The translations under genes and the position numbers were made by a program. DNA of 64,000 nt from Escherichia coli (lineage in GTDB: Bacteria; Pseudomonadota; Gammaproteobacteria; Enterobacterales; Enterobacteriaceae): assembly GCF_013122565.1 (NCBI RefSeq), contig NZ_CP053258.1, one strand, 5' to 3'. Below the pieces are notes generated by a model. That model saw only the letters and a list, made by a program, of their open reading frames with translations. It ran no database searches and was not told the origin of the DNA. How positions within the stretch are numbered: position 1 is the stretch's first letter; the number at the start of each line of letters is the position of its first letter. This document shows positions 1 to 59,653 of this stretch, piece by piece.

Positions 1-2
1 CG

Positions 3-707
3 CAAGGGCGCACGCTGATCCTCGGCGGCACCGGACCAATGGGACTGTTGGCGATTGATTATGCGCTGCATGGACCAGTTAACCCGTCGCTGCTCGTCAT
101 TACCGATACCGACAACGACAAATTGAGTTATGCGCGCAAGTACTATCCATCAGAACCGCAAACACTGATTCATTATCTCAATGCCGCCGATGCAGCATTT
201 GGTACGTTAATGGCACTGAGTGGCGGTCACGGCTTCGATGATATTTTCGTCTTTGTGCCTAATGAAGGACTGGTGACTCTCGCCTCTTCCTTGCTGGCGA
301 CAGATGGTTGCCTGAATTTCTTCGCCGGACCGCAGGATAAACATTTCAGCGCGCCAATTAATTTCTACGATGTGCATTATGCATTTACCCACTACGTGGG
401 CACGTCAGGCGGCAATACCGACGACATGCGCGCGGCGGTCAAACTGATCGAAGAGAAAAAAGTGCAGGCCGCAAAAGTGGTAACACATATTCTTGGGCTG
501 AATGCCGCGGGCGAAACCACGCTTGAATTGCCTGCCGTCGGCGGCGGCAAAAAGCTGGTGTATACCGGGAAATACCTGCCGCTGACGTCACTCACGCAGA
601 TTCAGGATCAAGCACTGGCGGCGATTCTGGCGCGTCATCAGGGGATCTGGTCCGGTGAGGCGGAGCAATACCTGCTCGCCCATGCAGAAGCAATTTCCCA
701 TGATTAA
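3..707 (+). CDS. Zn-dependent medium-chain dehydrogenase family protein, 3' portion only (5' end outside window); possibly a SorE-like sorbose-1-phosphate reductase
   Basis: Frame is open from nt 3 (..QGRTLILGGTGPMGLLAIDYAL..) to the stop at 705-707, with no start codon needed inside the window. GGTGPMG is a GxGxxG Rossmann motif as in the cofactor domain of MDR dehydrogenases. The SorE assignment rests on remembered gene neighbourhood (sor operon next to pepE in some E. coli), not on sequence identity. Confidence 0.55.
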   Translation, partial: QGRTLILGGTGPMGLLAIDYALHGPVNPSLLVITDTDNDKLSYARKYYPSEPQTLIHYLNAADAAFGTLMALSGGHGFDDIFVFVPNEGLVTLASSLLATDGCLNFFAGPQDKHFSAPINFYDVHYAFTHYVGTSGGNTDDMRAAVKLIEEKKVQAAKVVTHILGLNAAGETTLELPAVGGGKKLVYTGKYLPLTSLTQIQDQALAAILARHQGIWSGEAEQYLLAHAEAISHD

Positions 708-867
708 TCGCGCTACTTAACTCTGCATGTCGCTGGCTGGTCGCCGCGGCAACTTCGCGACCTGATGTGCGGCTGATTGCAGAAGCGGCACAATGTGCAC
801 GAGAAGGATAAAAAACATCAGCGCCTTAAGGGGCGCTCAAATTGGTAGCAAAGTGCACATTGTTTAT

Positions 868-967
868 GCCGGATGCGGAATGAAGCCTTATTCGGTCTAC
901 ATAATTTTGAAAATTCAATATATTGCAGTTATCTGGTAGGCCTGGTAAGCGTAGCGCATCAGGCAAT
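868..967. repeat. Pair of inverted REP-like palindromic units (BIME-like) between the dehydrogenase gene and pepE
   Basis: 868-900 tgccggatgcggaatgaagccttattcggtctac and 936-967 gtaggcctggtaagcgtagcgcatcaggca resemble the REP consensus (GCCGGATGCG..CTTATCCGGCCTAC) in opposite orientations. Confidence 0.5.
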
Positions 968-1088
968 GCTGTGTTTGTCATCAGTCTCAGCGCCCGGTGC
1001 AATACGTGACATCGTGAGCCATGTCAGTAAGTGGTTAAATTCGCAGTGGTAGCATTCCTTCCGTGATTTCTTGCTAACCGGAGAAGTA

Positions 1089-1778
1089 ATGGAACTGCTT
1101 TTATTGAGTAACTCGACGCTGCCGGGTAAAGCCTGGCTGGAACATGCACTGCCGCTAATTGCTGAACAGTTGCAGGGTCGCCGCTCAGCGGTGTTTATCC
1201 CTTTCGCTGGCGTAACGCAGACCTGGGATGATTACACAGAGAAAACGGCTGCGGTTCTCGCTCCGCTGGGTGTTTCTGTCACCGGTATTCATAGCGTTGT
1301 CGATCCCGTTGCCGCGATTGAAAATGCTGAGATCGTGATTGTCGGCGGCGGGAATACTTTCCAGTTGCTGAAACAGTGCCGCGAGCGCGGGCTGCTGGCA
1401 CCAATTACTGACGTGGTTAAACGTGGCGCACTGTATATTGGTTGGAGCGCAGGCGCTAACCTTGCTTGCCCAACCATTCGTACCACCAACGATATGCCGA
1501 TTGTCGATCCGCAAGGTTTCGATGCGCTGAATCTGTTCCCGCTGCAAATCAACCCGCACTTCACCAACGCGCTGCCGGAAGGCCATAAAGGTGAAACCCG
1601 TGAACAGCGTATTCGCGAACTGCTGGTCGTCGCGCCAGAACTCACAATTATTGGTCTACCGGAAGGTAACTGGATCACAGTGAGTAAAGGTCACGCAACG
1701 CTGGGTGGCCCGAACACCACTTATGTGTTTAAGGCTGGTGAAGAAGCGGTTCCGCTGGAAGCGGGTCACCGTTTTTAA
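1089..1778 (+). CDS. pepE: Peptidase E (alpha-aspartyl dipeptidase)
   Basis: ORF 1071-1778; translation from the internal ATG at 1089 ([29 protein letters not shown]...) matches remembered PepE; 229 aa. Confidence 0.9.
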
Positions 1779-1784
1779 ATGAAT

Positions 1785-1855
1785 TGCCGGATGCATGATC
1801 CGGCATCTTGTTCATAGTGCCTGATGCGACGCTTTACGCGTCTTATCAGGCCTAC
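1785..1855. repeat. Hairpin (gccggat-gcatg-atccggc) followed by a REP unit in the convergent pepE/yjbB spacer; likely bidirectional terminator region
   Basis: 1785-1805 tgccggatgcatgatccggca is an inverted repeat; 1819-1855 gcctgatgcgacgctttacgcgtcttatcaggcctac fits the REP consensus. Confidence 0.5.
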
Positions 1856-1867
1856 AGGGTCACGGTA

Positions 1868-3499
1868 TTAATACTCGTCCCGTCCTTCATCTTCATCCGG
1901 CTGTTCCAGCACACTGTAAGCCACCGAACAAAACAGCGAGTTCAGACGCTGCATATCTCCCAGTAAGCCTAAATGTAGCGAACTGGTTTCAATGCTCTGC
2001 ACGTTTTGCTGATGCAGGCGATCGACGTGGGCGTGGGAATAGCGGCGATTAAGAATGCGAAAGCGATGCTTGCTGCGGCGCAAACGACGGGCGCTGGTAA
2101 CATCACCAGAGAAGAAAACCGACATTGCCAGTTTTAAATTACTGAGCAATTGCTCATAGAGCGCATCCAGTTCCTTCAAGCCATCAAGCGAAAATGCCCG
2201 CCGTGCTGCCAGCGATTTATCGGCAATTTCGCTCCCCATGCGCTCGACGATATCGGAGGCCTGTTCAAGGTTGAGCGACATTTCGATGATCTCCGCCCAG
2301 CGGCGCGACTCTTCCTCCGCCAGCTCTTCTTTTGGCATCCGCGCCAGATACAGCTTAATGGCGGTATAGAGAACGTTGATATCATCTGCCAGTTTACGCA
2401 GCTCTTTCTCCTGCCGTGGCTCGCCGTGCATCACTTTATTCAGCCCTTCCATCATCTGTTCCATGGCGTCGCCAATGCGCAGGGTTTCGCGCGCGGCGTT
2501 CGCCAGAGCAAGCGTGGGCGTATCCAGCGCGCTGACATCCAGATGTTTGGGCCGTAGCTGGGTATCCAGTTCCGGTTCATCGCGAATAATCGTTTTGCAA
2601 AACCGTGCCATCGGGTCAACAAATGGCAGCATGACCAGGCAACGTACAAGGTTGTAGAAGACGTGGAAATAGATCACCAGTTCCGCTTTTGGCAATGACA
2701 ACTTCCCCATTGTCTCTGCCAGCAAATGGACAAACGGCAGGATAATCAGGCTACCCACCAGCTTAAACAGCAAACTACCCAGCGCGACACGGCGGGCTGC
2801 GGCATTGGCGGCACTGTTGTTGAGCATCGCCAGCAGGCCGGAACCGAGGTTAGCACCAATCACCAGACAGAGCGCCACGGGGAAGGAGATAATGCCTGCG
2901 GCGGTCAGAGTCGCAGTCAGCAGTACAGCAGCAAGGCTGGAGTAGCTGATAATGGCGAACATCGCGCCAATCAGCGCATCCAGCAGAATATCGCCGGTCA
3001 GCGAGGCAAAGATCACCTGAACGCCGTTTGCCTGGGTGATCGGCGTTACGGCCTGCACAATCAACTCCAGCGCCAGCAAAATCAGCCCAAGACCAATACC
3101 GACGCGGCCCAGTTGCCCGGCGCGTGACTGTTTGCGTCCGAGGAAAAAAATCACGCCGATAAAAATAAGTAACGGTGACAGCCAGGATAAGTCGAAGGTG
3201 AGAATACGCGCCATTAGCGCCGTCCCGACATCTGCCCCCAGCACAATGACCAGAGCCGGTGCGAGGGCTACCAGATCCTGAGCGACGAACGAGGTCACCA
3301 GCATGGTGGTGGCATTACTGCTCTGTACCAGTGCGGTAACGCCGATCCCCGCGCAAAAGGCGAGCGGCTTTTTTTCGACGCTCCGGCTAAGGACAGTACG
3401 CAAACGCGCGCCGAAGACGCGCATTACGCCGGTTCGAACAATATGAGTCCCCCAGACCAGCAGGGCGACGGCAGAAAGCAGGTGAAGCAGCGTTAACAC
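1868..3499 (-). CDS. yjbB: Na+/phosphate cotransporter-family membrane protein YjbB
   Basis: 543-aa ORF, hydrophobic multi-helix translation; position between pepE and metH as in K-12. Confidence 0.85.
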   Translation of the reverse strand: MLTLLHLLSAVALLVWGTHIVRTGVMRVFGARLRTVLSRSVEKKPLAFCAGIGVTALVQSSNATTMLVTSFVAQDLVALAPALVIVLGADVGTALMARILTFDLSWLSPLLIFIGVIFFLGRKQSRAGQLGRVGIGLGLILLALELIVQAVTPITQANGVQVIFASLTGDILLDALIGAMFAIISYSSLAAVLLTATLTAAGIISFPVALCLVIGANLGSGLLAMLNNSAANAAARRVALGSLLFKLVGSLIILPFVHLLAETMGKLSLPKAELVIYFHVFYNLVRCLVMLPFVDPMARFCKTIIRDEPELDTQLRPKHLDVSALDTPTLALANAARETLRIGDAMEQMMEGLNKVMHGEPRQEKELRKLADDINVLYTAIKLYLARMPKEELAEEESRRWAEIIEMSLNLEQASDIVERMGSEIADKSLAARRAFSLDGLKELDALYEQLLSNLKLAMSVFFSGDVTSARRLRRSKHRFRILNRRYSHAHVDRLHQQNVQSIETSSLHLGLLGDMQRLNSLFCSVAYSVLEQPDEDEGRDEY

Positions 3500-3718
3500 G
3501 AGTTCAGGTTCTCCTTATCGTTATATGTTCCTGAAGCAATTGAATGACCAAAGGACCGGAAACACGCTGACTGGCATCTTTACTGTGCCTTTTGACATTC
3601 GTTTTTCCGGCTAAGATTATTCCAGCCTGTTTCCAGTATAAGTGTTTCATATTAATAAAGAGACAGGGCACTCATTGAGCGCCCTGTTTGTTGTAAGGAA
3701 AAGTGACAGATTTGTGAA

Positions 3719-7402
<3,684 letters not shown>

Positions 7403-7564
7403 ACTTGCTCCCGACACGCTCAACCCAGATTTAATAAAAATTCAACAAACCATACTGGCATAAACGCATCTGTGGTAAAAGCAACCACTACCCAACATGA
7501 GATTTGTTCAACATTAACTCATCGGATCAGTTCAGCAACTATTGCATTAGCTAACAATAAAAAT

Positions 7565-7579
7565 GAAAATGATTTCCAC
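7565..7579 (+). promoter_or_regulatory. Candidate IclR autoregulatory operator
   Basis: gaaaatgatttccac is a near-palindrome resembling the IclR box, immediately upstream of the iclR start. Confidence 0.4.
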
Positions 7580-7601
7580 GATACAGAAAAAGGAGACTGT
7601 C

Positions 7602-8426
7602 ATGGTCGCACCCATTCCCGCGAAACGCGGCAGAAAACCCGCCGTTGCCACCGCACCAGCGACTGGACAGGTTCAGTCTTTAACGCGTGGCCTGAAATTA
7701 CTGGAGTGGATTGCCGAATCCAATGGCAGTGTGGCACTCACGGAACTGGCGCAACAAGCCGGGTTACCCAATTCCACGACCCACCGCCTGCTAACCACGA
7801 TGCAACAGCAGGGTTTCGTGCGTCAGGTCGGCGAACTGGGACATTGGGCAATCGGCGCACATGCCTTTATGGTCGGCAGCAGCTTTCTCCAGAGCCGTAA
7901 TTTGTTAGCAATTGTTCACCCTATCCTGCGCAATTTAATGGAAGAGTCTGGCGAAACGGTCAATATGGCGGTGCTTGATCAAAGCGATCACGAAGCGATT
8001 ATTATCGACCAGGTACAGTGTACGCATCTGATGCGAATGTCCGCGCCTATCGGCGGTAAATTGCCGATGCACGCTTCCGGTGCGGGTAAAGCCTTTTTAG
8101 CCCAACTGAGCGAAGAACAGGTGACGAAGCTGCTGCACCGCAAAGGGTTACATGCCTATACCCACGCAACGCTGGTGTCTCCTGTGCATTTAAAAGAAGA
8201 TCTCGCCCAAACGCGCAAACGGGGTTATTCATTTGACGATGAGGAACATGCGCTGGGGCTACGTTGCCTTGCAGCGTGTATTTTCGATGAGCACCGTGAA
8301 CCGTTTGCCGCAATTTCTATTTCCGGACCGATTTCACGTATTACCGATGACCGCGTGACCGAGTTTGGCGCGATGGTGATTAAAGCGGCGAAGGAAGTGA
8401 CGCTGGCCTATGGCGGGATGCGGTGA
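7602..8426 (+). CDS. iclR: Glyoxylate-shunt transcriptional repressor IclR
   Basis: ORF 7563-8426; internal start MVAPIPAKRGRKPAVATAPATGQVQSLTRGLKLLEW matches IclR; 274 aa. Confidence 0.95.
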   Translation: MVAPIPAKRGRKPAVATAPATGQVQSLTRGLKLLEWIAESNGSVALTELAQQAGLPNSTTHRLLTTMQQQGFVRQVGELGHWAIGAHAFMVGSSFLQSRNLLAIVHPILRNLMEESGETVNMAVLDQSDHEAIIIDQVQCTHLMRMSAPIGGKLPMHASGAGKAFLAQLSEEQVTKLLHRKGLHAYTHATLVSPVHLKEDLAQTRKRGYSFDDEEHALGLRCLAACIFDEHREPFAAISISGPISRITDDRVTEFGAMVIKAAKEVTLAYGGMR

Positions 8427-8442
8427 CATTTTCGCTTCTGAT

Positions 8443-10167
<1,725 letters not shown>

Positions 10168-10195
10168 TTAGCGCCCTCATCAAGAGCAAAGAATT

Positions 10196-10239
10196 GCCGG
10201 ATGCGGCGTGAACGCCTTATCCGGCCTACAGTCAGCAAC
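10196..10239 (-). repeat. REP element in the aceA-aceK intercistronic region
   Basis: gccggatgcggcgtgaacgccttatccggcctac is a near-consensus REP; a REP in this spacer is a classic feature of the ace operon. Confidence 0.8.
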
Positions 10240-10251
10240 GGTTGTTGTTGC

Positions 10252-11556
10252 TTAGAACTGCGATTCTTCGGTGGAGCCAGTTAGCGCGGTAACTGACGAC
10301 GTACCGCCCTGAATAATGGTCGTCACTTTATCGAAATAACCTGTACCCACTTCCTGCTGGTGAGATACGAAGGTATAGCCATCTTTCGCAGCGGCAAATT
10401 CCGGCTGCTGCACTTTCTCAACATAGTGCTTCATACCCTCGCCCTGGGCATAGGCGTTTGCCAGGTCGAACATGTTGAACCACATGCTGTGGATACCTGC
10501 CAGGGTGATGAACTGGAACTTGTAGCCCATATCCGACAGCTGCTGCTGGAAGCTGGCAATAGTTTTGTCGTCGAGGTTTTTCTGCCAGTTGAACGACGGC
10601 GAGCAGTTATAAGCCAGCAGTTTGCCTGGATATTTCGCGTGGATAGCTTGTGCAAAGCGACGCGCCAGTTCCAGATCCGGCGTGGAGGTTTCACACCATA
10701 CCAGGTCAGCATATGGCGCATACGCCAGGCCACGGCTGATCGCTTGCTCAATGCCCGCATGAGTACGGAAGAAGCCTTCACTGGTACGCTCGCCGGTAAT
10801 AAATTCGCTGTCATACGGGTCGCAATCGGAGGTGATCAGATCCGCCGCATCGGCATCGGTACGAGCAACCAGCAGAGTCGGAACGCCCGTCACGTCAGCC
10901 GCCAGACGCGCCGCAACCAGTTTCTGAATAGCTTCCTGAGTTGGCACCAAAACTTTGCCGCCCATGTGACCGCATTTCTTCACTGACGCCAGCTGATCTT
11001 CGAAGTGAACTGCCGCTGCACCGGCTTCAATCATCGCTTTCATCAGTTCAAAGGCATTCAGGACACCGCCAAAACCGGCTTCCGCATCGGCAACGATCGG
11101 CAGGAAGTAATCGACATAGCGCGGATCGCCCGGCTCAATACCCGCGGACCATTGGATCTGATCCGCACGGCGGAAGGTGTTGTTGATCCGCTCCACCACA
11201 GCTGGCACCGAGTTTGCCGGATAGAGCGACTGATCCGGATACATGCTGGCCGCCAGGTTAGCGTCCGCCGCTACCTGCCATCCCGACAGATAGACCGCTT
11301 CAATACCCGCTTTCGCCTGTTGCAGCGCCTGACCGCCAGTCAGTGCACCGAGGCTGTTGATGTAGCCTTTTTTCGACTCGCCATGCAGCAGACGCCACAT
11401 TTTCGCCGCGCCCAGTTGCGCCAGCGTGCATTCAGGATTGACTGAACCGCGTAATTTCACCACATCTTCCGCGCTGTATGGGCGAGTAATGCCTTCCCAA
11501 CGCGGTTGAGTCCACTCTTTCTGTAATTCTTCAATTTGTTGTGTACGGGTTTTCAT
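10252..11556 (-). CDS. aceA: Isocitrate lyase
   Basis: ORF 10252-11571; internal start [32 protein letters not shown] gives 434 aa. Confidence 0.95.
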
Positions 11557-11585
11557 GTGCAGATGCTCCATAGTTATGTGGTGGT

Positions 11586-13187
11586 TTACGCTAACAGGCG
11601 GTAGCCTGGCAGGGTCAGGAAATCAATTAACTCATCGGAAGTGGTGATCTGTTCCATCAAGCGTGCGGCATCGTCAAAACGCCCCTGGGAGAAACGTTCT
11701 TCGCCCAGTTCGCTGGCAATGACTTTCATCTCTTCGCCCAGCATCTGGCGGAACAAGGCTTTGGTCACCGGTTTGCCATTGCTCAACGTTTTTTGATGAT
11801 GGATCCACTGCCAGATTGAGGTACGGGAAATTTCAGCCGTCGCCGCATCTTCCATCAGGCCATAAATCGGCACGCAGCCGTTGCCGGAGATCCACGCTTC
11901 AATGTACTGCACAGCCACGCGAATGTTGGCGCGCATACCTTCTTCGGTGCGTTCACCATCACAAGGTGCCAGCAGCTGATCGGCAGTAATCGGCGCGTCT
12001 TGTTCGCGCAATACTTCAAGCTGATTTTTACGGGAGCCGAGAATGTCGTTGAATACCGCCATTGCCGTGTCCGCAAGGCCTGGGTGAGCGATCCATGTGC
12101 CATCGTGACCGTTATTGGCTTCCAGCGCTTTATCCGCTTTTACTTTGTTGAGCACCTGGTTATTACGCTCTTCATCTTTGCTCGGAATAAACGCCGCCAT
12201 GCCGCCCATCGCAAAAGCACCGCGTTTATGGCAGGTTTTAATCAACAGGCGTGAGTAAGCATTCAGGAAGGGTTTATCCATCGTCACTGCCTGTCTGTCT
12301 GGCAGGACGCGATCGGGATAGTTTTTCAACGTTTTGATATAACTGAAGATGTAATCCCAACGACCGCAGTTCAGACCAACAATATGGTCACGCAGCGCGT
12401 GAATGATTTCATCCATCTGGAACACGGCGGGCAGCGTTTCAATCAGCAACGTCGCCTTGATGGTGCCGCGCGGCAGATTAAAGCGATCTTCTGCATAGCT
12501 GAAGACTTCACTCCACCAGGCCGCTTCCTGCCAGGACTGGGTTTTCGGCAGATAGAAATAGGGACCGCTGCCCTTTGCCAACAGTGCCTGATAGTTGTGG
12601 AAGAAATAGAGCGCAAAATCAAACAGGCTACCGGGGATTGCCTCACCACGCCAGGTGACATGTTTTTCCGGCAAGTGCAGACCGCGTACCCGACAAATCA
12701 AAACCGCTGGATTGGGCTTGAGCTGATAAATTTTGCCTGCTTCATTCGTGTAACTGATGGTGCCGTTAACCGCATCGCGCAGGTTAATTTGCCCGTCGAT
12801 CACTTTGTTCCAGTCTGGTGCCAGTGAATCTTCGAAATCGGCCATAAAGACTTTCACATTGGCGTTCAGTGCGTTGATCACCATCTTGCGCTCAACCGGG
12901 CCAGTTATCTCGACTCGACGATCTTGTAAGTCCGCAGGAATACCACGAATTTTCCAGCCTGCATCACGAATGGAAGCTGTTTCCGAAATAAAATCAGGCA
13001 ACGTTCCGTTATCGATATCCTGCTGCTGCTGAATGCGCGCTGCCAGAAGTTTATTGCGTTGTGGCGTAAAATGCGTCACCAGCTCAGTCAGAAATTCTAC
13101 CGCTTCGGCAGTAAGAATTTGCTTCTCCTGCTCGCCATACGGCCTTGTGAAAGCCAGTTCATCGGTTGTTGTTGCCTGTTCAGTCAT
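11586..13187 (-). CDS. aceB: Malate synthase A
   Basis: ORF 11586-13205; internal start [32 protein letters not shown] gives 533 aa. Confidence 0.95.
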
Positions 13188-13287
13188 CGTGCAGCTCCTC
13201 GTCATGGATCCGAAAACTTCCCCACTGTGAACGAAGGATCGTTGTGCGCTTTTCGTTCAGCACAACTAAGACTACTCATTTAAAATG

Positions 13288-13313
13288 CAAAATCAAAAAC
13301 AATTTCCATTTTA
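13288..13313 (-). promoter_or_regulatory. IclR operator in the aceB promoter region
   Basis: Minus-strand sequence aaaatggaaattgtttttgattttg matches the remembered IclR box of the aceBAK promoter. Confidence 0.6.
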
Positions 13314-13385
13314 ATTAAAAATACTTGATAACTTATTGATAACAATATAAATAAAATTTATTCACCTACTGAGGTGCGTTTCGGA

Positions 13386-13412
13386 AATAAAAAAGGCACC
13401 CGAAGGTGCCTG
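13386..13412 (-). terminator. Intrinsic terminator after metA
   Basis: Minus-strand aggcacc-ttcg-ggtgcct hairpin followed by a T-run. Confidence 0.6.
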
Positions 13413-13455
13413 AGGTAAGGTGCTGAATCGCTTAACGATCGACTATTACAGAAGA

Positions 13456-14385
13456 TTAATCCAGCGTTGGATTCATGTGCCGTAGATCGTATGGCGTGAT
13501 CTGGTAGACGTAATAGTTGAGCCAGTTGGTAAACAGCAAATTACCGTGACTACGCCAGCTCGCTCGCGGTTTGTTTTGCGGATCATTGTGCGGGAAATAG
13601 TTATACGGTACTTCCGGGTCTAGTCCGGCTTCCACATCGCGGAAATATTCTTGCGCCAGCGTTTGCGCATCATATTCGGGATGGCCCGTCACAAAGGCAA
13701 TGCGCTTATCTTTGCTGGCAAACAGATATGCATCCCCTCCTTCCGTCTCTGCCAGAATTTCCAGATCGGTGTAATCACGAATCAACGCTGCCGGAAAGTC
13801 AGCATAGCGCGAATGCGGTGCCAGGAATGAATCATCAAAGCCACGCGTCAGAAGCGCATGAGGATGGAGAATATGATGCTCGTAAACGCCAGAGAGTTTG
13901 TCGGTGCGAGTTTGCTTAGGAATGCCGTAGAGGATATTGAGCGCGGCCTGTACCGCCCAGCAGACAAACAGCGTCGAGGTGACGTGATCTTTCGACCACT
14001 CCAGCACCTGTTTGATCTGCGGCCAGTAAGCGACATCATTAAACTCTACCAGGCCCAGCGGCGCACCAGTTACAATCAAACCGTCAAAGTTCTGATCCTG
14101 AATATCTTCAAAGTTACAGTAGAAGTTATTCAGATGCTCTGCGGGCGTGTTGCGCGACTCGCGGGAATCGATGCGCAACAGCTGAATATCGACCTGCAAA
14201 GGCGAGTTTGAAAGCAGGCGCAGAAATTGATTTTCAGTTTCAATCTTCTTCGGCATCAGGTTAAGGATAAGCACCTTTAGCGGACGAATTTCCTGACCAG
14301 ACGCACGAGAAGTTGTCATCACAAAGACGTTTTCTTCACGCAAGAAATTGACGGCGGGTAGCTCGTCCGGCACACGAATCGGCAT
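13456..14385 (-). CDS. metA: Homoserine O-succinyltransferase
   Basis: 309-aa [31 protein letters not shown]... Confidence 0.95.
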
Positions 14386-14415
14386 AACCTGATTACCTCA
14401 CTACATACGCTTATA

Positions 14416-14436
14416 CGTTTAGACATCCAGATAGCT
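14416..14436 (-). promoter_or_regulatory. Candidate MetJ boxes upstream of metA
   Basis: agacatcc/agatagct are tandem 8-mers loosely resembling the AGACGTCT met-box; metA is a known MetJ target. Confidence 0.3.
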
Positions 14437-14541
14437 GAAGATAACCAGAAAATTTGCCAATGTCGAGCCTGCATGTTGAAGGTGAGAAAGTTTCAAGGAA
14501 AAGACTACGTTAGAATATAAGAATGACTAAAAGGAGTGAAA

Positions 14542-14985
14542 ATGGTTATTAGTATTCGCCGCTCACGGTATGAGGAAGGGGAGGAACTCGTTGCGATTTG
14601 GTGTCGATCTGTCGATGCCACCCACGATTTTTTATCAGCAGAGTATCGGGCCGAGCTGGAAGAGCTGGTTCGTTCCTTTCTGCCGGAAGCACCGTTGTGG
14701 GTCGCGGTTAATGAACGGGATCAGCTGGTTGGGTTTATGTTGTTAAGTGGGCAGCATATGGATGCGCTGTTTATCGATCCTGATGTGCGCGGCTGCGGCG
14801 TGGGTCGGATGCTGGTGGAGCATGCGCTCTCGATGGCACCGGAACTGACAACCAACGTTAATGAGCAAAATGAGCAGGCGGTTGGGTTCTATAAGAAGGT
14901 GGGTTTTAAGGTTACTGGACGCTCTGAGGTGGACGATTTGGGGAAACCGTATCCGTTGCTGAATCTGGCGTATGTGGGGGAATAA
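14542..14985 (+). CDS. yjaB: GNAT-family N-acetyltransferase YjaB
   Basis: ORF 14536-14985; internal start MVISIRRSRYEEGEELVAIW gives 147 aa; acetyltransferase-like motif region (..LFIDPDVRGCGVGRMLVEHAL..) present. Confidence 0.85.
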   Translation: MVISIRRSRYEEGEELVAIWCRSVDATHDFLSAEYRAELEELVRSFLPEAPLWVAVNERDQLVGFMLLSGQHMDALFIDPDVRGCGVGRMLVEHALSMAPELTTNVNEQNEQAVGFYKKVGFKVTGRSEVDDLGKPYPLLNLAYVGE

Positions 14986-15012
14986 GCTGCCCCCTATCGT
15001 GCTATCGTGCCT

Positions 15013-15051
15013 GCGTAAGCTGGATAAGACGCGCCAGCGTCGCATCCGGCA
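15013..15051 (-). repeat. REP-like element between yjaB and the rrnE terminator
   Basis: Minus-strand tgccggatgcgacgctggcgcgtcttatccagcttacgc fits the REP pattern. Confidence 0.5.
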
Positions 15052-15065
15052 TTTTTTTCTGCGCC

Positions 15066-15098
15066 AATGCAAAAAGGCCATCCGTCAGGATGGCCTTT
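15066..15098 (-). terminator. rrnE operon intrinsic terminator
   Basis: aggccatcc-gtca-ggatggcct hairpin with a T-run on the minus strand, immediately after the 5S gene. Confidence 0.7.
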
Positions 15099-15109
15099 CG
15101 CTTAATTTG

Positions 15110-15229
15110 ATGCCTGGCAGTTCCCTACTCTCGCATGGGGAGACCCCACACTACCATCGGCGCTACGGCGTTTCACTTCTGAGTTCGGCATGGGGTCAGG
15201 TGGGACCACCGCGCTACGGCCGCCAGGCA
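15110..15229 (-). rRNA. rrfE: 5S ribosomal RNA (rrnE operon)
   Basis: 120-nt match to the remembered E. coli 5S sequence (TGCCTGGCGGC...GGAACTGCCAGGCAT) in reverse complement. Confidence 0.95.
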
Positions 15230-15323
15230 AATTCTGTTTTATTAACCCGCTTATCGCCGGTTAATGTAATCTGTATCAGGCTGAAAATCTTCTCTCAATC
15301 CGCCAAAACATCTTCGGCGTTGT

Positions 15324-18227
<2,904 letters not shown>

Positions 18228-18411
18228 TCACAACCCGAAGATGTTTCACTTCAGAGTTGCGAAAATTTGAGAGACTCACGAACAACATTCGTTGTTCAGT
18301 GTTTCAATTTTCAGCTTGATCCAGATTTTTAAAGAGCAAATATCTCAAACATCACCCGAAGATGAGTTTTGAGATATTGAGGTCGGCGACTTTCACTCAC
18401 AAACCAGCAAG

Positions 18412-18487
18412 TGGCGTCCCCTAGGGGATTCGAACCCCTGTTACCGCCGTGAAAGGGCGGTGTCCTGGGCCTCTAGACGAAGGGGAC
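18412..18487 (-). tRNA. gltV: tRNA-Glu (anticodon UUC) in the 16S-23S spacer
   Basis: Reverse complement equals GTCCCCTTCGTCTAGAGGCCCAGGACACCGCCCTTTCACGGCGGTAACAGGGGTTCGAATCCCCTAGGGGACGCCA. Confidence 0.95.
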
Positions 18488-18572: not shown

Positions 18573-20114
<1,542 letters not shown>

Positions 20115-32056: not shown

Positions 32057-32109
32057 GTTCTGCGCTGTTAACGCGTAATTTACATTCAACGCCCCGTTTG
32101 TGGGGGCTA

Positions 32110-32205
32110 ATTTCTTGTCGGAGTGCCTTAACTGGCTGAGACCGTTTATTCGGGATCCGCGGAACCTGATCAGGCTAATACCTGCGAAGGGAACAAGAGT
32201 TAATC
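32110..32205 (+). promoter_or_regulatory. TPP (thi-box) riboswitch in the thiC leader
   Basis: ctgagaccgtttattcgggatccgcggaacctgatcaggctaatacctgcgaagggaa contains the conserved thi-box core (CTGAGA...ACCTGATC.GG.TAATGCC.GCG.AGGGAA); boundaries approximate. Confidence 0.85.
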
Positions 32206-32286
32206 TGCTATCGCATCGCCTTTGCGGCGATCGTCTCTTGCTTCATCCGTCGTCTGACAAGCCACGTCCTTAACTTTTTGGAATGA

Positions 32287-37879: not shown

Positions 37880-38070
37880 AATACTCAACTATGATAGAGA
37901 CGAAAATAAGAACACATGTTCTCATCTTCCAGGATGCAGCAGACTGAAGAAATTCAGACATCCCGCAACCTGCGATTATCGCAAGGTCAAGGCAAAGTCC
38001 GGTAATGGCGTTCTGAATACCAGAGATAATTCTCTGGCGAAACCCACCTTAAGGTGGGTTTTGTTATTTT
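37880..38070 (+). ncRNA. Candidate small transcript (about 190 nt) between thiH and htrC, bounded by a sigma-70-like promoter and a canonical intrinsic terminator
   Basis: Promoter-like TTGAGC-17 bp-TGTAAT at 37845-37873; terminator hairpin aacccacc-ttaa-ggtgggtt at 38041-38060 followed by ttgttatttt. Transcript ends are predicted, not observed. Confidence 0.35.
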
Positions 38071-47389: not shown

Positions 47390-47422
47390 GCGCAAAAAGG
47401 CTGGTGACCAAAAAGTCACCAG
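47390..47422 (-). terminator. rplL-rpoB intercistronic attenuator (partial terminator)
   Basis: Minus-strand ctggtgac-ttttt-ggtcaccag hairpin followed by a T-run, in the 286-bp rplL-rpoB spacer where the rpoBC attenuator is known to lie. Confidence 0.7.
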
Positions 47423-47463
47423 CCATCAGCCTGATTTCTCAGGCTGCAACCGGAAGGGTTGGC

Positions 47464-56299: not shown

Positions 56300-56332
56300 A
56301 CGCAAAAAGGCCCAGTCTTCCGACTGAGCCTT
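56300..56332 (-). terminator. rrnB operon intrinsic terminator (single T1/T2-like hairpin)
   Basis: Minus strand ggctcagtcggaagactgggcc hairpin followed by a T-run, immediately after the 5S gene. Confidence 0.7.
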
Positions 56333-56344
56333 CTGCTTAATTTG

Positions 56345-56464
56345 ATGCCTGGCAGTTCCCTACTCTCGCATGGGGAGACCCCACACTACCATCGGCGCTA
56401 CGGCGTTTCACTTCTGAGTTCGGCATGGGGTCAGGTGGGACCACCGCGCTACGGCCGCCAGGCA
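56345..56464 (-). rRNA. rrfB: 5S ribosomal RNA (rrnB operon)
   Basis: 120-nt reverse-complement match to E. coli 5S rRNA. Confidence 0.95.
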
Positions 56465-59460: not shown

Positions 59461-59653
59461 TCACAACCCGAAGATGTTTCTTACGATTCATCATCGTGTC
59501 GCGAAAATTTGAGAGACTCACGAACAACTTTCGTTGTTCAGTGTTTCAATTTTCAGCTTGATCCAGATTTTTAAAGAGCAAATATCTCAAACATCACCCG
59601 AAGATGAGTTTTGAGATATTAAGGCAGGTGACTTTCACTCACAAACCAGCAAG

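What the first reader, a model, noticed from the sequence alone, without database searches (positions are those of the whole stretch)
14986..15109. No yjaA between yjaB and the rrnE 5S gene; a REP-like element occupies the site
Only about 125 bp separate the yjaB stop (14985) from the 5S gene (15110), and that space is filled by a REP-like palindrome (15013-15051) and the rrnE terminator. In K-12 I recall a small gene, yjaA, between rrnE and yjaB, which is another phylotyping marker. Combined with the missing arpA, this locus gives an arpA-negative, yjaA-negative profile from a single window.
Basis: partly seen in the sequence, partly recalled or inferred. Interest (0 to 1): 0.3.

Follow-up and report, generated by a model that had tools for sequence, protein, structure and literature searches.

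The report
Ordinary yjaA-negative yjaB–rrnE spacer
The short gap between yjaB and the rrnE 5S gene really does lack yjaA, but this is the common form of the locus, found in about half of all E. coli and in related genera, and not a fresh deletion scar.

Summary
The yjaB stop codon ends at 14985 and mature 5S starts at 15110. The 124 bp between them hold one REP element (15015-15050) followed by a T7 run, and an rrn intrinsic terminator hairpin (15073-15098). K-12 has yjaA (b4011) at this site. The window has no yjaA and no arpA, and no binding sites for their typing primers.

The state is ordinary. Of 5,426 complete E. coli genomes, 2,594 carry yjaA and 2,821 carry this compact spacer. E. coli SBF45 has an identical 124-bp spacer. 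E. coli FDAARGOS_497 is collinear with the window across both the arpA-less and the yjaA-less junctions.

The "REP marks the deletion scar" reading is not supported:
- The two alleles are non-homologous cassettes. They diverge from the last two yjaB codons to about 9 nt before 5S, and each has its own terminator.
- The window's terminator matches K-12 rrnB T2 apart from two swapped flank bases.
- The layout of REP-like palindrome, then terminator, then 5S recurs in Salmonella, Citrobacter, Klebsiella and Pseudocitrobacter.
- The yjaA cassette looks exchangeable. It is 99.6% identical between K-12 and E. whittamii, against 94% for the flanks.

An arpA-negative, yjaA-negative profile fits phylogroup F or G only if chuA is present, and chuA lies outside the window.

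The parts
14542..14985 (+). yjaB (GNAT peptidyl-lysine N-acetyltransferase); the last two codons (GAA TAA) are already allele-specific, versus GCG TAG in yjaA-positive strains
   Evidence: tblastn 96.6% to K-12 YjaB; NCBIfam NF007807 equivalog at 271 bits and Pfam GNAT domains; alignment A1
14986..15109 (.). 124-bp convergent-terminator spacer between yjaB and rrfE: the yjaA-negative allele
   Evidence: >=80% coverage in 2,821 of 5,426 genomes; 124/124 identical in E. coli SBF45
14994..15009 (+). 8-bp tandem duplication, CTATCGTG x2; single copy in E. coli CV261 and Escherichia sp. E1V33
15015..15050 (-). single REP (repetitive extragenic palindromic) element; hairpin at 15019-15050
   Evidence: 2 mismatches to GCCKGATGCGRCGYNNNNRCGYCTTATCMGGCCTAC with 0 expected by chance; hairpin in MFE and centroid structures; sub-threshold naRNA4 hit
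15052..15058 (+). T7 run directly after the REP hairpin; with the hairpin it forms a terminator-like 3' end for yjaB mRNA (inferred)
   Evidence: sequence; fold; a T-run is conserved in all yjaA-negative Escherichia spacers
15068..15109 (-). rrnE intrinsic terminator: hairpin 15073-15098 plus a U5 tail on the rRNA strand. The sequence matches K-12 rrnB T2 apart from two swapped flank bases, and it directly abuts 5S
   Evidence: alignment A2 with K-12 rrnB T1/T2
15110..15229 (-). rrfE 5S rRNA, the 3' end of the rrnE operon (23S 15324-18227, tRNA-Glu 18415-18487, 16S 18573-20114)
   Evidence: Rfam RF00001 at 15112-15227, 92.8 bits; K-12 alignment
   Evidence: tblastn; junction shared by 1,308 of 5,426 genomes; AceK.f primer site at 8822-8841 without an ArpA1.r site

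Best explanation
This is the ordinary yjaA-negative allele of the yjaB-rrnE junction, a compact zone where two converging transcripts end. Reading rightward, yjaB transcripts meet a REP hairpin followed by a T7 run. From established REP biology, such a hairpin can act as a 3'-end or stabiliser element (inferred here). Reading leftward, the rrnE transcript ends at a canonical rrn terminator that matches K-12 rrnB T2 apart from two swapped flank bases and sits directly after 5S. E. coli has two alternative, non-homologous cassettes at this site. One is this 124-bp REP-plus-T2 cassette. The other is a ~520-bp cassette carrying yjaA with its own terminators, as in K-12 and B2 strains. Both are bounded by the same conserved flanks (the yjaB 3' end and the 5S 3' end) and can therefore be swapped by homologous recombination (inferred). 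The compact form is at least as old as the genus, since related genera share the layout, so the REP is a resident element and not the scar of a recent yjaA deletion. The window comes from E. coli sensu stricto that is arpA-negative and yjaA-negative. In the Clermont scheme (from my own knowledge of it) that profile means phylogroup F or G if chuA is present.
For: Shown: K-12 has yjaA at the site and the window has none. yjaA is in 2,594 of 5,426 genomes and the compact spacer is in 2,821, which together account for 5,415. SBF45's spacer is 100% identical. FDAARGOS_497 is collinear with window 999-16648 in one alignment at 97.0%, with no arpA and no yjaA. Alignment A1 shows the alleles diverge from the last two yjaB codons to about 9 nt before 5S, with different terminators. 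The window's terminator matches K-12 rrnB T2. Other yjaA-negative E. coli carry a T1-type hairpin or T1+T2 at the same place, always with the REP. A REP-like palindrome followed by GCAAAAAGSCCATCC-type terminator and 5S recurs in Escherichia sp. E1V33 and MOD1-EC7003, Citrobacter, Salmonella, Klebsiella and Pseudocitrobacter. The yjaA cassette is 99.6% identical between K-12 and E. whittamii, while the adjacent flank is 94.1%. The REP match and the terminator fold are statistically supported.
Against: yjaA homologues (65-66% aa) sit at the same site, next to the canonical terminator, in Kosakonia sp. S29 and Phytobacter diazotrophicus. One E. coli strain (HH45) has a decayed yjaA next to the canonical terminator. 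yjaA at this site is therefore also old, and an ancient loss cannot be excluded. Several outgroup contigs end within 20-130 bp of yjaB (E. albertii after 18 bp), so their state is inferred from where the contig breaks. Termination at the REP-plus-T7 is inferred only: the 80-nt fold has z=-1.05 and the simple terminator scan did not flag it. The rest of the genome could not be searched for yjaA or chuA.
Confidence: 0.9

Rival explanations
1. One reading: this lineage once had the K-12 arrangement, yjaA was deleted, and the REP marks or mediated the deletion junction.
For: K-12 has yjaA exactly here. REP and yjaA are mutually exclusive in every locus examined. HH45 shows that yjaA can decay in place.
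Against: No remnant of the K-12 cassette survives: neither its CCCCGG terminator nor its yjaB-proximal hairpin. The allele boundary lies inside the last yjaB codons and just before 5S, which fits replacement rather than an internal deletion. The same REP at the same position is present in 2,821 genomes and in other Escherichia species, and REP-like palindromes occupy the equivalent position in four other genera.
Confidence: 0.04
2. Deep-history variant: yjaA was ancestral at this site in Enterobacteriaceae, was lost very early and repeatedly, and a REP later colonised the emptied spacer. The compact form would then be a very old, inherited deletion product.
For: yjaA is syntenic in Kosakonia sp. 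S29 and Phytobacter diazotrophicus. YjaA is 65-66% identical there, against 77-78% for YjaB and about 90% for MetA, which is plausible for vertical descent of a fast-evolving small protein. In HH45 and in those genera yjaA sits beside the canonical terminator.
Against: The distribution is patchy even within a genus: Phytobacter massiliensis lacks yjaA while P. diazotrophicus has it. There is clear evidence of cassette transfer between species, at 99.6% versus 94%. Most sampled genera lack yjaA. The tools used here could not perform a phylogenetic reconstruction.
Confidence: 0.2
3. Assembly artefact: yjaA was lost because an rRNA-operon flank was collapsed or mis-joined in the source assembly.
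For: rrn operons often break or mis-join assemblies. Many draft contigs end right after yjaB.
Against: The junction is continuous and identical to the one in the complete genome SBF45. It has the same architecture as thousands of complete genomes, and the whole 64 kb is collinear with K-12 apart from known indels.
Confidence: 0.01

Closest known systems
yjaA-negative allele of the E. coli yjaB-rrfE locus (as in E. coli SBF45, L26, FDAARGOS_497; the negative state of the Clermont yjaA marker)
   Same: Same gene order (metA, yjaB, then rrfE), the same REP at the same position, and a canonical rrn terminator. The spacer is 124/124 identical to SBF45's, and the architecture is shared with 2,821 complete genomes.
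   Different: Only allelic detail differs. The window has the CTATCGTG duplication and a T2-type hairpin, while other strains have a T1-type hairpin or T1+T2. The surrounding genes are only 97-98% identical to the best complete genomes.
K-12 / B2 yjaA-positive allele (rrfE-yjaA-yjaB, b4010-b4012)
   Same: Identical flanks (yjaB body, 5S) and the same chromosomal position.
   Different: A ~520-bp cassette replaces the 124-bp one. It contains yjaA (NF041448 YjaA family), a different rrnE terminator (AAAACCCCGGYC...GGGGTTTT), no REP, and different final yjaB codons.
E. coli rrnB T1/T2 terminators
   Same: The window's rrnE hairpin and its flanks (CAAATTAAGCGAAAGGCCATCCTGACGGATGGCCTTTTTGC) match K-12 rrnB T2 apart from two swapped bases in the 5' flank (GCGAAAGG versus GCAGAAGG).
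   Different: In K-12 rrnB, T2 follows T1 and a ~170-bp spacer. Here T2 directly abuts 5S, as if T1 and the spacer were absent. The dual form occurs at rrnE in MZ1211 and AR_0006.
REP (repetitive extragenic palindromic) elements of enterobacteria
   Same: Matches the consensus with 2 mismatches, lies outside genes between convergent genes, and forms a hairpin.
   Different: It is a single REP, not a BIME cluster. It is followed by a T7 run, which gives it a terminator-like shape.

Membership tests
REP element | Match to the ~35-nt imperfect-palindrome consensus GCCKGATGCGRCGYNNNNRCGYCTTATCMGGCCTAC | tested here: met
   15015-15050 on the minus strand, 2 mismatches; 0 matches in 100 shuffles
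REP element | Extragenic location and a stable stem-loop | tested here: met
   Lies 30 nt after the yjaB stop, between convergent genes. The hairpin at 15019-15050 is in both the MFE and centroid structures, although the 80-nt segment's z-score is only -1.05.
REP element | Member of a dispersed multi-copy family in the genome | tested here: inconclusive
   It is the only strict-consensus match in this 64-kb window. Related REPs were seen in the K-12 aceA-aceK spacer and in a Citrobacter spacer, and there is a sub-threshold naRNA4 hit. The whole genome was not available.
Intrinsic (rho-independent) terminator, rrnB T2 type | G+C-rich hairpin followed by a U-run on the transcribed strand | tested here: met
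   11-bp perfect stem at 15073-15098 with a UUUUU tail on the minus strand; dG -22.4 kcal/mol, z=-3.7
Intrinsic (rho-independent) terminator, rrnB T2 type | Sequence identity to the characterised K-12 rrnB T2 | tested here: met
   Alignment A2: the hairpin and downstream flank are identical, and two adjacent bases in the upstream flank are swapped
Intrinsic (rho-independent) terminator, rrnB T2 type | Termination activity in vivo | not testable with these tools
   Would need Term-seq, 3'-RACE or a reporter assay
YjaA family stress response protein (NCBIfam NF041448) | An ORF in the window matching YjaA | tested here: not met
   tblastn with K-12 YjaA finds no hit in 64 kb. Neither yjaA primer binds with up to 4 mismatches. 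The two ORFs overlapping the spacer (112 aa and 117 aa) have no Pfam hit, and they overlap yjaB antisense and 5S respectively.
Clermont phylogroup F/G (quadruplex profile arpA- chuA+ yjaA- TspE4.C2-) | arpA negative | tested here: met
   No ArpA tblastn hit; iclR and aceK are adjacent; an AceK.f site is present without an ArpA1.r site
Clermont phylogroup F/G (quadruplex profile arpA- chuA+ yjaA- TspE4.C2-) | yjaA negative | tested here: met
Clermont phylogroup F/G (quadruplex profile arpA- chuA+ yjaA- TspE4.C2-) | chuA positive and TspE4.C2 negative | not testable with these tools
   Both loci lie outside the 64-kb window, and no primer sites were found in it. The decision table comes from my own knowledge of Clermont et al. 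2013; the primers come from PMC10132334 and PMC9914308.

The most novel reading that the evidence does not exclude
The yjaB-rrfE site holds a long-lived, trans-species presence/absence polymorphism. A yjaA cassette and a REP/terminator cassette would be kept as alternative alleles and shuttled between Escherichia species, and perhaps between genera, by homologous recombination anchored on the near-invariant 5S/rrn terminator and on yjaB. If so, the yjaA phylotyping marker reports the recombination history of one small cassette and not clonal descent.
Probability: 0.4. Interest if true: 0.25.

Novelty: already known. Interest (0 to 1): 0.06.

Why it matters
It matters little. Presence or absence of yjaA has been a standard E. 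coli phylotyping marker since 2000, and the negative state is carried by about half of sequenced strains. Three practical points follow:
- The window can be scored arpA-negative and yjaA-negative.
- The REP is not a deletion scar, so no recent event should be read into it.
- The yjaA cassette shows signs of transfer between species (E. coli and E. whittamii), which is a mild caution against treating the marker as strictly clonal.

Tried and rejected
1. A hidden small gene in the spacer. The only ORFs overlapping it (14743-15081 on the minus strand, 112 aa; 14972-15325 on the plus strand, 117 aa) run antisense through yjaB or through 5S and have no Pfam hit. Rejected.
2. A known structured RNA in the spacer. 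A permissive Rfam scan gave only sub-threshold hits. The best was the REP-derived naRNA4, which merely restates the REP call.
3. A promoter in the spacer. None was found.
4. Identifying the strain. The exact YjaB sequence is on only 2 contigs in the large collection, and the one retrieved (GCA_052983875.1) is only 98.3% identical over 3.5 kb. The best complete-genome matches are 97.8-99.0%. The strain and phylogroup remain unassigned. A Shigella origin seems unlikely, because the 64 kb is collinear with K-12 without IS insertions, but this was not tested formally.
5. Literature on this junction. A full-text search for yjaA, yjaB and rrnE found nothing specific. The explicit Clermont decision table was not found in the papers I opened, so it is cited from my own knowledge.
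6. I ran no further search on YjaA's wider distribution, because the 38 genome loci already answered the question of direction well enough.

Full report
**Observation**

The window carries aceB (11586-13205, minus), metA (13456-14385, minus) and yjaB (14542-14985, plus). These are followed by a complete rrn operon on the minus strand: 5S at 15112-15227 by Rfam, 23S, tRNA-Glu and 16S. Aligning K-12 puts the mature 120-nt rrfE at 15110-15229.

The gap contains these elements:
- An 8-bp tandem duplication, CTATCGTG x2, at 14994-15009.
- One REP element at 15015-15050. It has 2 mismatches to the Stern consensus, it is the only such match in the window, and 0 matches are expected from shuffles. The hairpin spans 15019-15050. 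There is also a sub-threshold hit to the REP-derived naRNA4.
- A T7 run at 15052-15058.
- An 11-bp perfect inverted repeat at 15073-15098, with folding z-scores of about -3.6 to -3.7 on either strand.

**K-12 comparison**

tblastn with K-12 YjaA and ArpA finds nothing in the 64 kb. iclR (7602-8426) and aceK (8449-10167) are adjacent.

I ran an in-silico PCR with the published Clermont quadruplex primers (sequences from PMC10132334 and PMC9914308). Only the AceK.f site (8822-8841) is present. The K-12 control yields the expected 211-bp yjaA and 400-bp arpA products. The window is arpA-negative and yjaA-negative.

**How unusual is it?**

It is not unusual.
- yjaA is present in 2,594 of 5,426 complete RefSeq E. 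coli genomes.
- The compact spacer is present at 80% coverage or better in 2,821. The two states together account for 5,415 genomes.
- E. coli SBF45 has a 124/124 identical spacer.
- The arpA-less iclR-aceK junction is shared by 1,308 genomes.
- FDAARGOS_497 aligns to window 999-16648 as a single 97.0% alignment and is annotated with neither arpA nor yjaA. The combined profile therefore already exists among reference genomes.

**Is the REP a deletion scar?**

The evidence says no.

Alignment A1 shows that the yjaA-positive and yjaA-negative alleles part company within the last two yjaB codons (GAA TAA versus GCG/GTG TAG). They rejoin only about 9 nt before the 5S 3' end. Nothing homologous lies in between. 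The K-12 cassette has its own rrnE terminator (AAAACCCCGGYC...GGGGTTTT) and no REP.

The window's terminator, with its flanks, matches K-12 rrnB T2 apart from two swapped bases in the upstream flank, and it is placed directly after 5S.

Other yjaA-negative E. coli have a T1-type hairpin or the full T1+T2 pair at this spot, always with the same REP upstream. Variation of this kind among rrn operon ends would fit gene conversion, which I infer rather than show.

In the 38 species-representative loci fetched with YjaB, the layout is yjaB stop, then a REP-like palindrome (CCGGATAAGGCG...CATCCGGC, same orientation), then about 20 nt, then a GCAAAAAGSCCATCC-type terminator, then 5S. This layout recurs in:
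- Escherichia sp. E1V33 and MOD1-EC7003
- Citrobacter koseri
- Salmonella enterica subsp. diarizonae
- Klebsiella michiganensis and K. spallanzanii
- Pseudocitrobacter

. The compact REP-bearing spacer is thus at least as old as the genus.

**History of yjaA**

yjaA is not a simple recent insertion either. Homologues at 65-66% aa identity sit in the same place, beside the canonical terminator, in Kosakonia sp. S29 and Phytobacter diazotrophicus, while Phytobacter massiliensis lacks it. One E. coli strain (HH45) has a frameshifted, 89%-identical yjaA remnant next to the canonical terminator.

The K-12 yjaA cassette is 99.6% identical to that of E. whittamii, although the adjoining yjaB-metA-aceB flank is only 94.1% identical. 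This points to recent exchange of the cassette between species.

The best reading is two alternative cassettes at one site, swapped by homologous recombination on conserved flanks. The deep ancestral state is unresolved.

**Mechanism**

The spacer is a convergent termination zone.
- Shown: the structures and their conservation.
- Inferred: (a) the REP hairpin plus U-run ends and/or stabilises yjaB mRNA, which is established REP biology but was not flagged by the simple terminator scan; (b) the T2-type hairpin with its U5 tail terminates rrnE.

**Phylotyping meaning**

By the Clermont 2013 table (my own knowledge), arpA-negative and yjaA-negative gives phylogroup F with chuA positive and TspE4.C2 negative. 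ST117 is now split off as G; see PMC6113867. TspE4.C2-positive would give B2, and chuA-negative would give an unassigned profile. chuA and TspE4.C2 lie outside the window, so no call can be made.

Sequence identity places the window in E. coli sensu stricto: 97.7% to K-12 and 98.4% to HH45, against 96.7% to E1V33, 94% to E. whittamii and E. albertii, and 92% to the SCPM-O-B-8794 lineage. No complete genome matches closely, however. The best matches are 97.8-99.0%.

**Verdict**

This is a known, common polymorphism of low interest.

Noticed in passing
window 56300-56346 (downstream of the rrnB-side 5S, 56347-56462, minus strand): This rrn operon ends in a single hairpin that has the stem of K-12 rrnB T1 (GGCTCAGTCGGAAGACTGGGCC) inside T2-type flanks (CAAATTAAGCAGAAGG...CCTTTTTGCGTTTCTAC). 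K-12 rrnB has T1, a ~170-bp spacer and then T2. It looks like a T1/T2 recombinant or gene-conversion product.
   Followed up: partly
L006 4445-4965 (E. whittamii) versus L001 6161-6680 (K-12): The yjaA cassette is 99.6% identical between E. whittamii and K-12, while the adjacent yjaB-metA-aceB flank is 94.1% identical. YjaA is 100% identical at the protein level. This indicates recent transfer of the phylotyping marker between species.
   Followed up: yes
L004 2432-2827 (E. coli HH45, NZ_CP116411.1): This is the only genome of 5,426 with a decayed yjaA: frameshifted, 89% DNA identity to K-12, annotated as a pseudogene. It is combined with the canonical T2-like rrn terminator and the yjaA-negative-type yjaB stop. 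It may be a relic of an older yjaA-plus-canonical-terminator arrangement like the one seen in Kosakonia and Phytobacter.
   Followed up: partly
L026 4463-4846 and L027 4462-4845: yjaA homologues (65-66% aa identity) lie at the syntenic yjaB-rrn site in Phytobacter diazotrophicus and Kosakonia sp. S29. Phytobacter massiliensis (L029) has an ultra-compact spacer with neither yjaA nor a REP.
   Followed up: partly
L044 3600-3640 (E. coli SBF45): The yjaB stop codon TAA is mutated to TCA, which extends the annotated ORF by 11 codons into the spacer (477 nt versus 444 nt). The spacer is otherwise identical to the window's.
   Followed up: no
L046 and L047 (E. coli MZ1211, AR_0006), yjaB-rrfE spacer: In these strains the yjaA-negative rrnE end carries the full dual T1 + ~170 bp + T2 terminator region (spacer about 283 bp), as in K-12 rrnB. 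STEC434, GPEC709 and FDAARGOS_497 carry a single T1-type hairpin. The terminator module varies while the REP stays constant.
   Followed up: partly
whole window; especially 8448-10245 (aceK): No complete RefSeq E. coli genome is close to this window. The best matches are 97.8% (1-11600 and 13400-15330) and 99.0% (22000-46000). aceK is only 94% identical to K-12's. The exact YjaB sequence occurs on only 2 contigs in the large collection. The strain belongs to a sparsely sequenced lineage or has a recombinant aceK-yjaB segment.
   Followed up: partly
window 14994-15009: An 8-bp tandem duplication (CTATCGTG x2) lies just after the yjaB stop. It is shared with L26, SBF45 and FDAARGOS_497, but is single-copy in CV261 and Escherichia sp. 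E1V33.
   Followed up: yes
window 47398-47459 (minus), 37902-38062 (plus), 32109-32209 (plus): Rfam gathering-level hits elsewhere in the window: 'Pseudomonas sRNA P26', sroH, and the TPP riboswitch upstream of thiC. StyR-44 also hits in both rrn operons, at 18235-18334 and 59468-59576. All are expected for this K-12-syntenic region.
   Followed up: no
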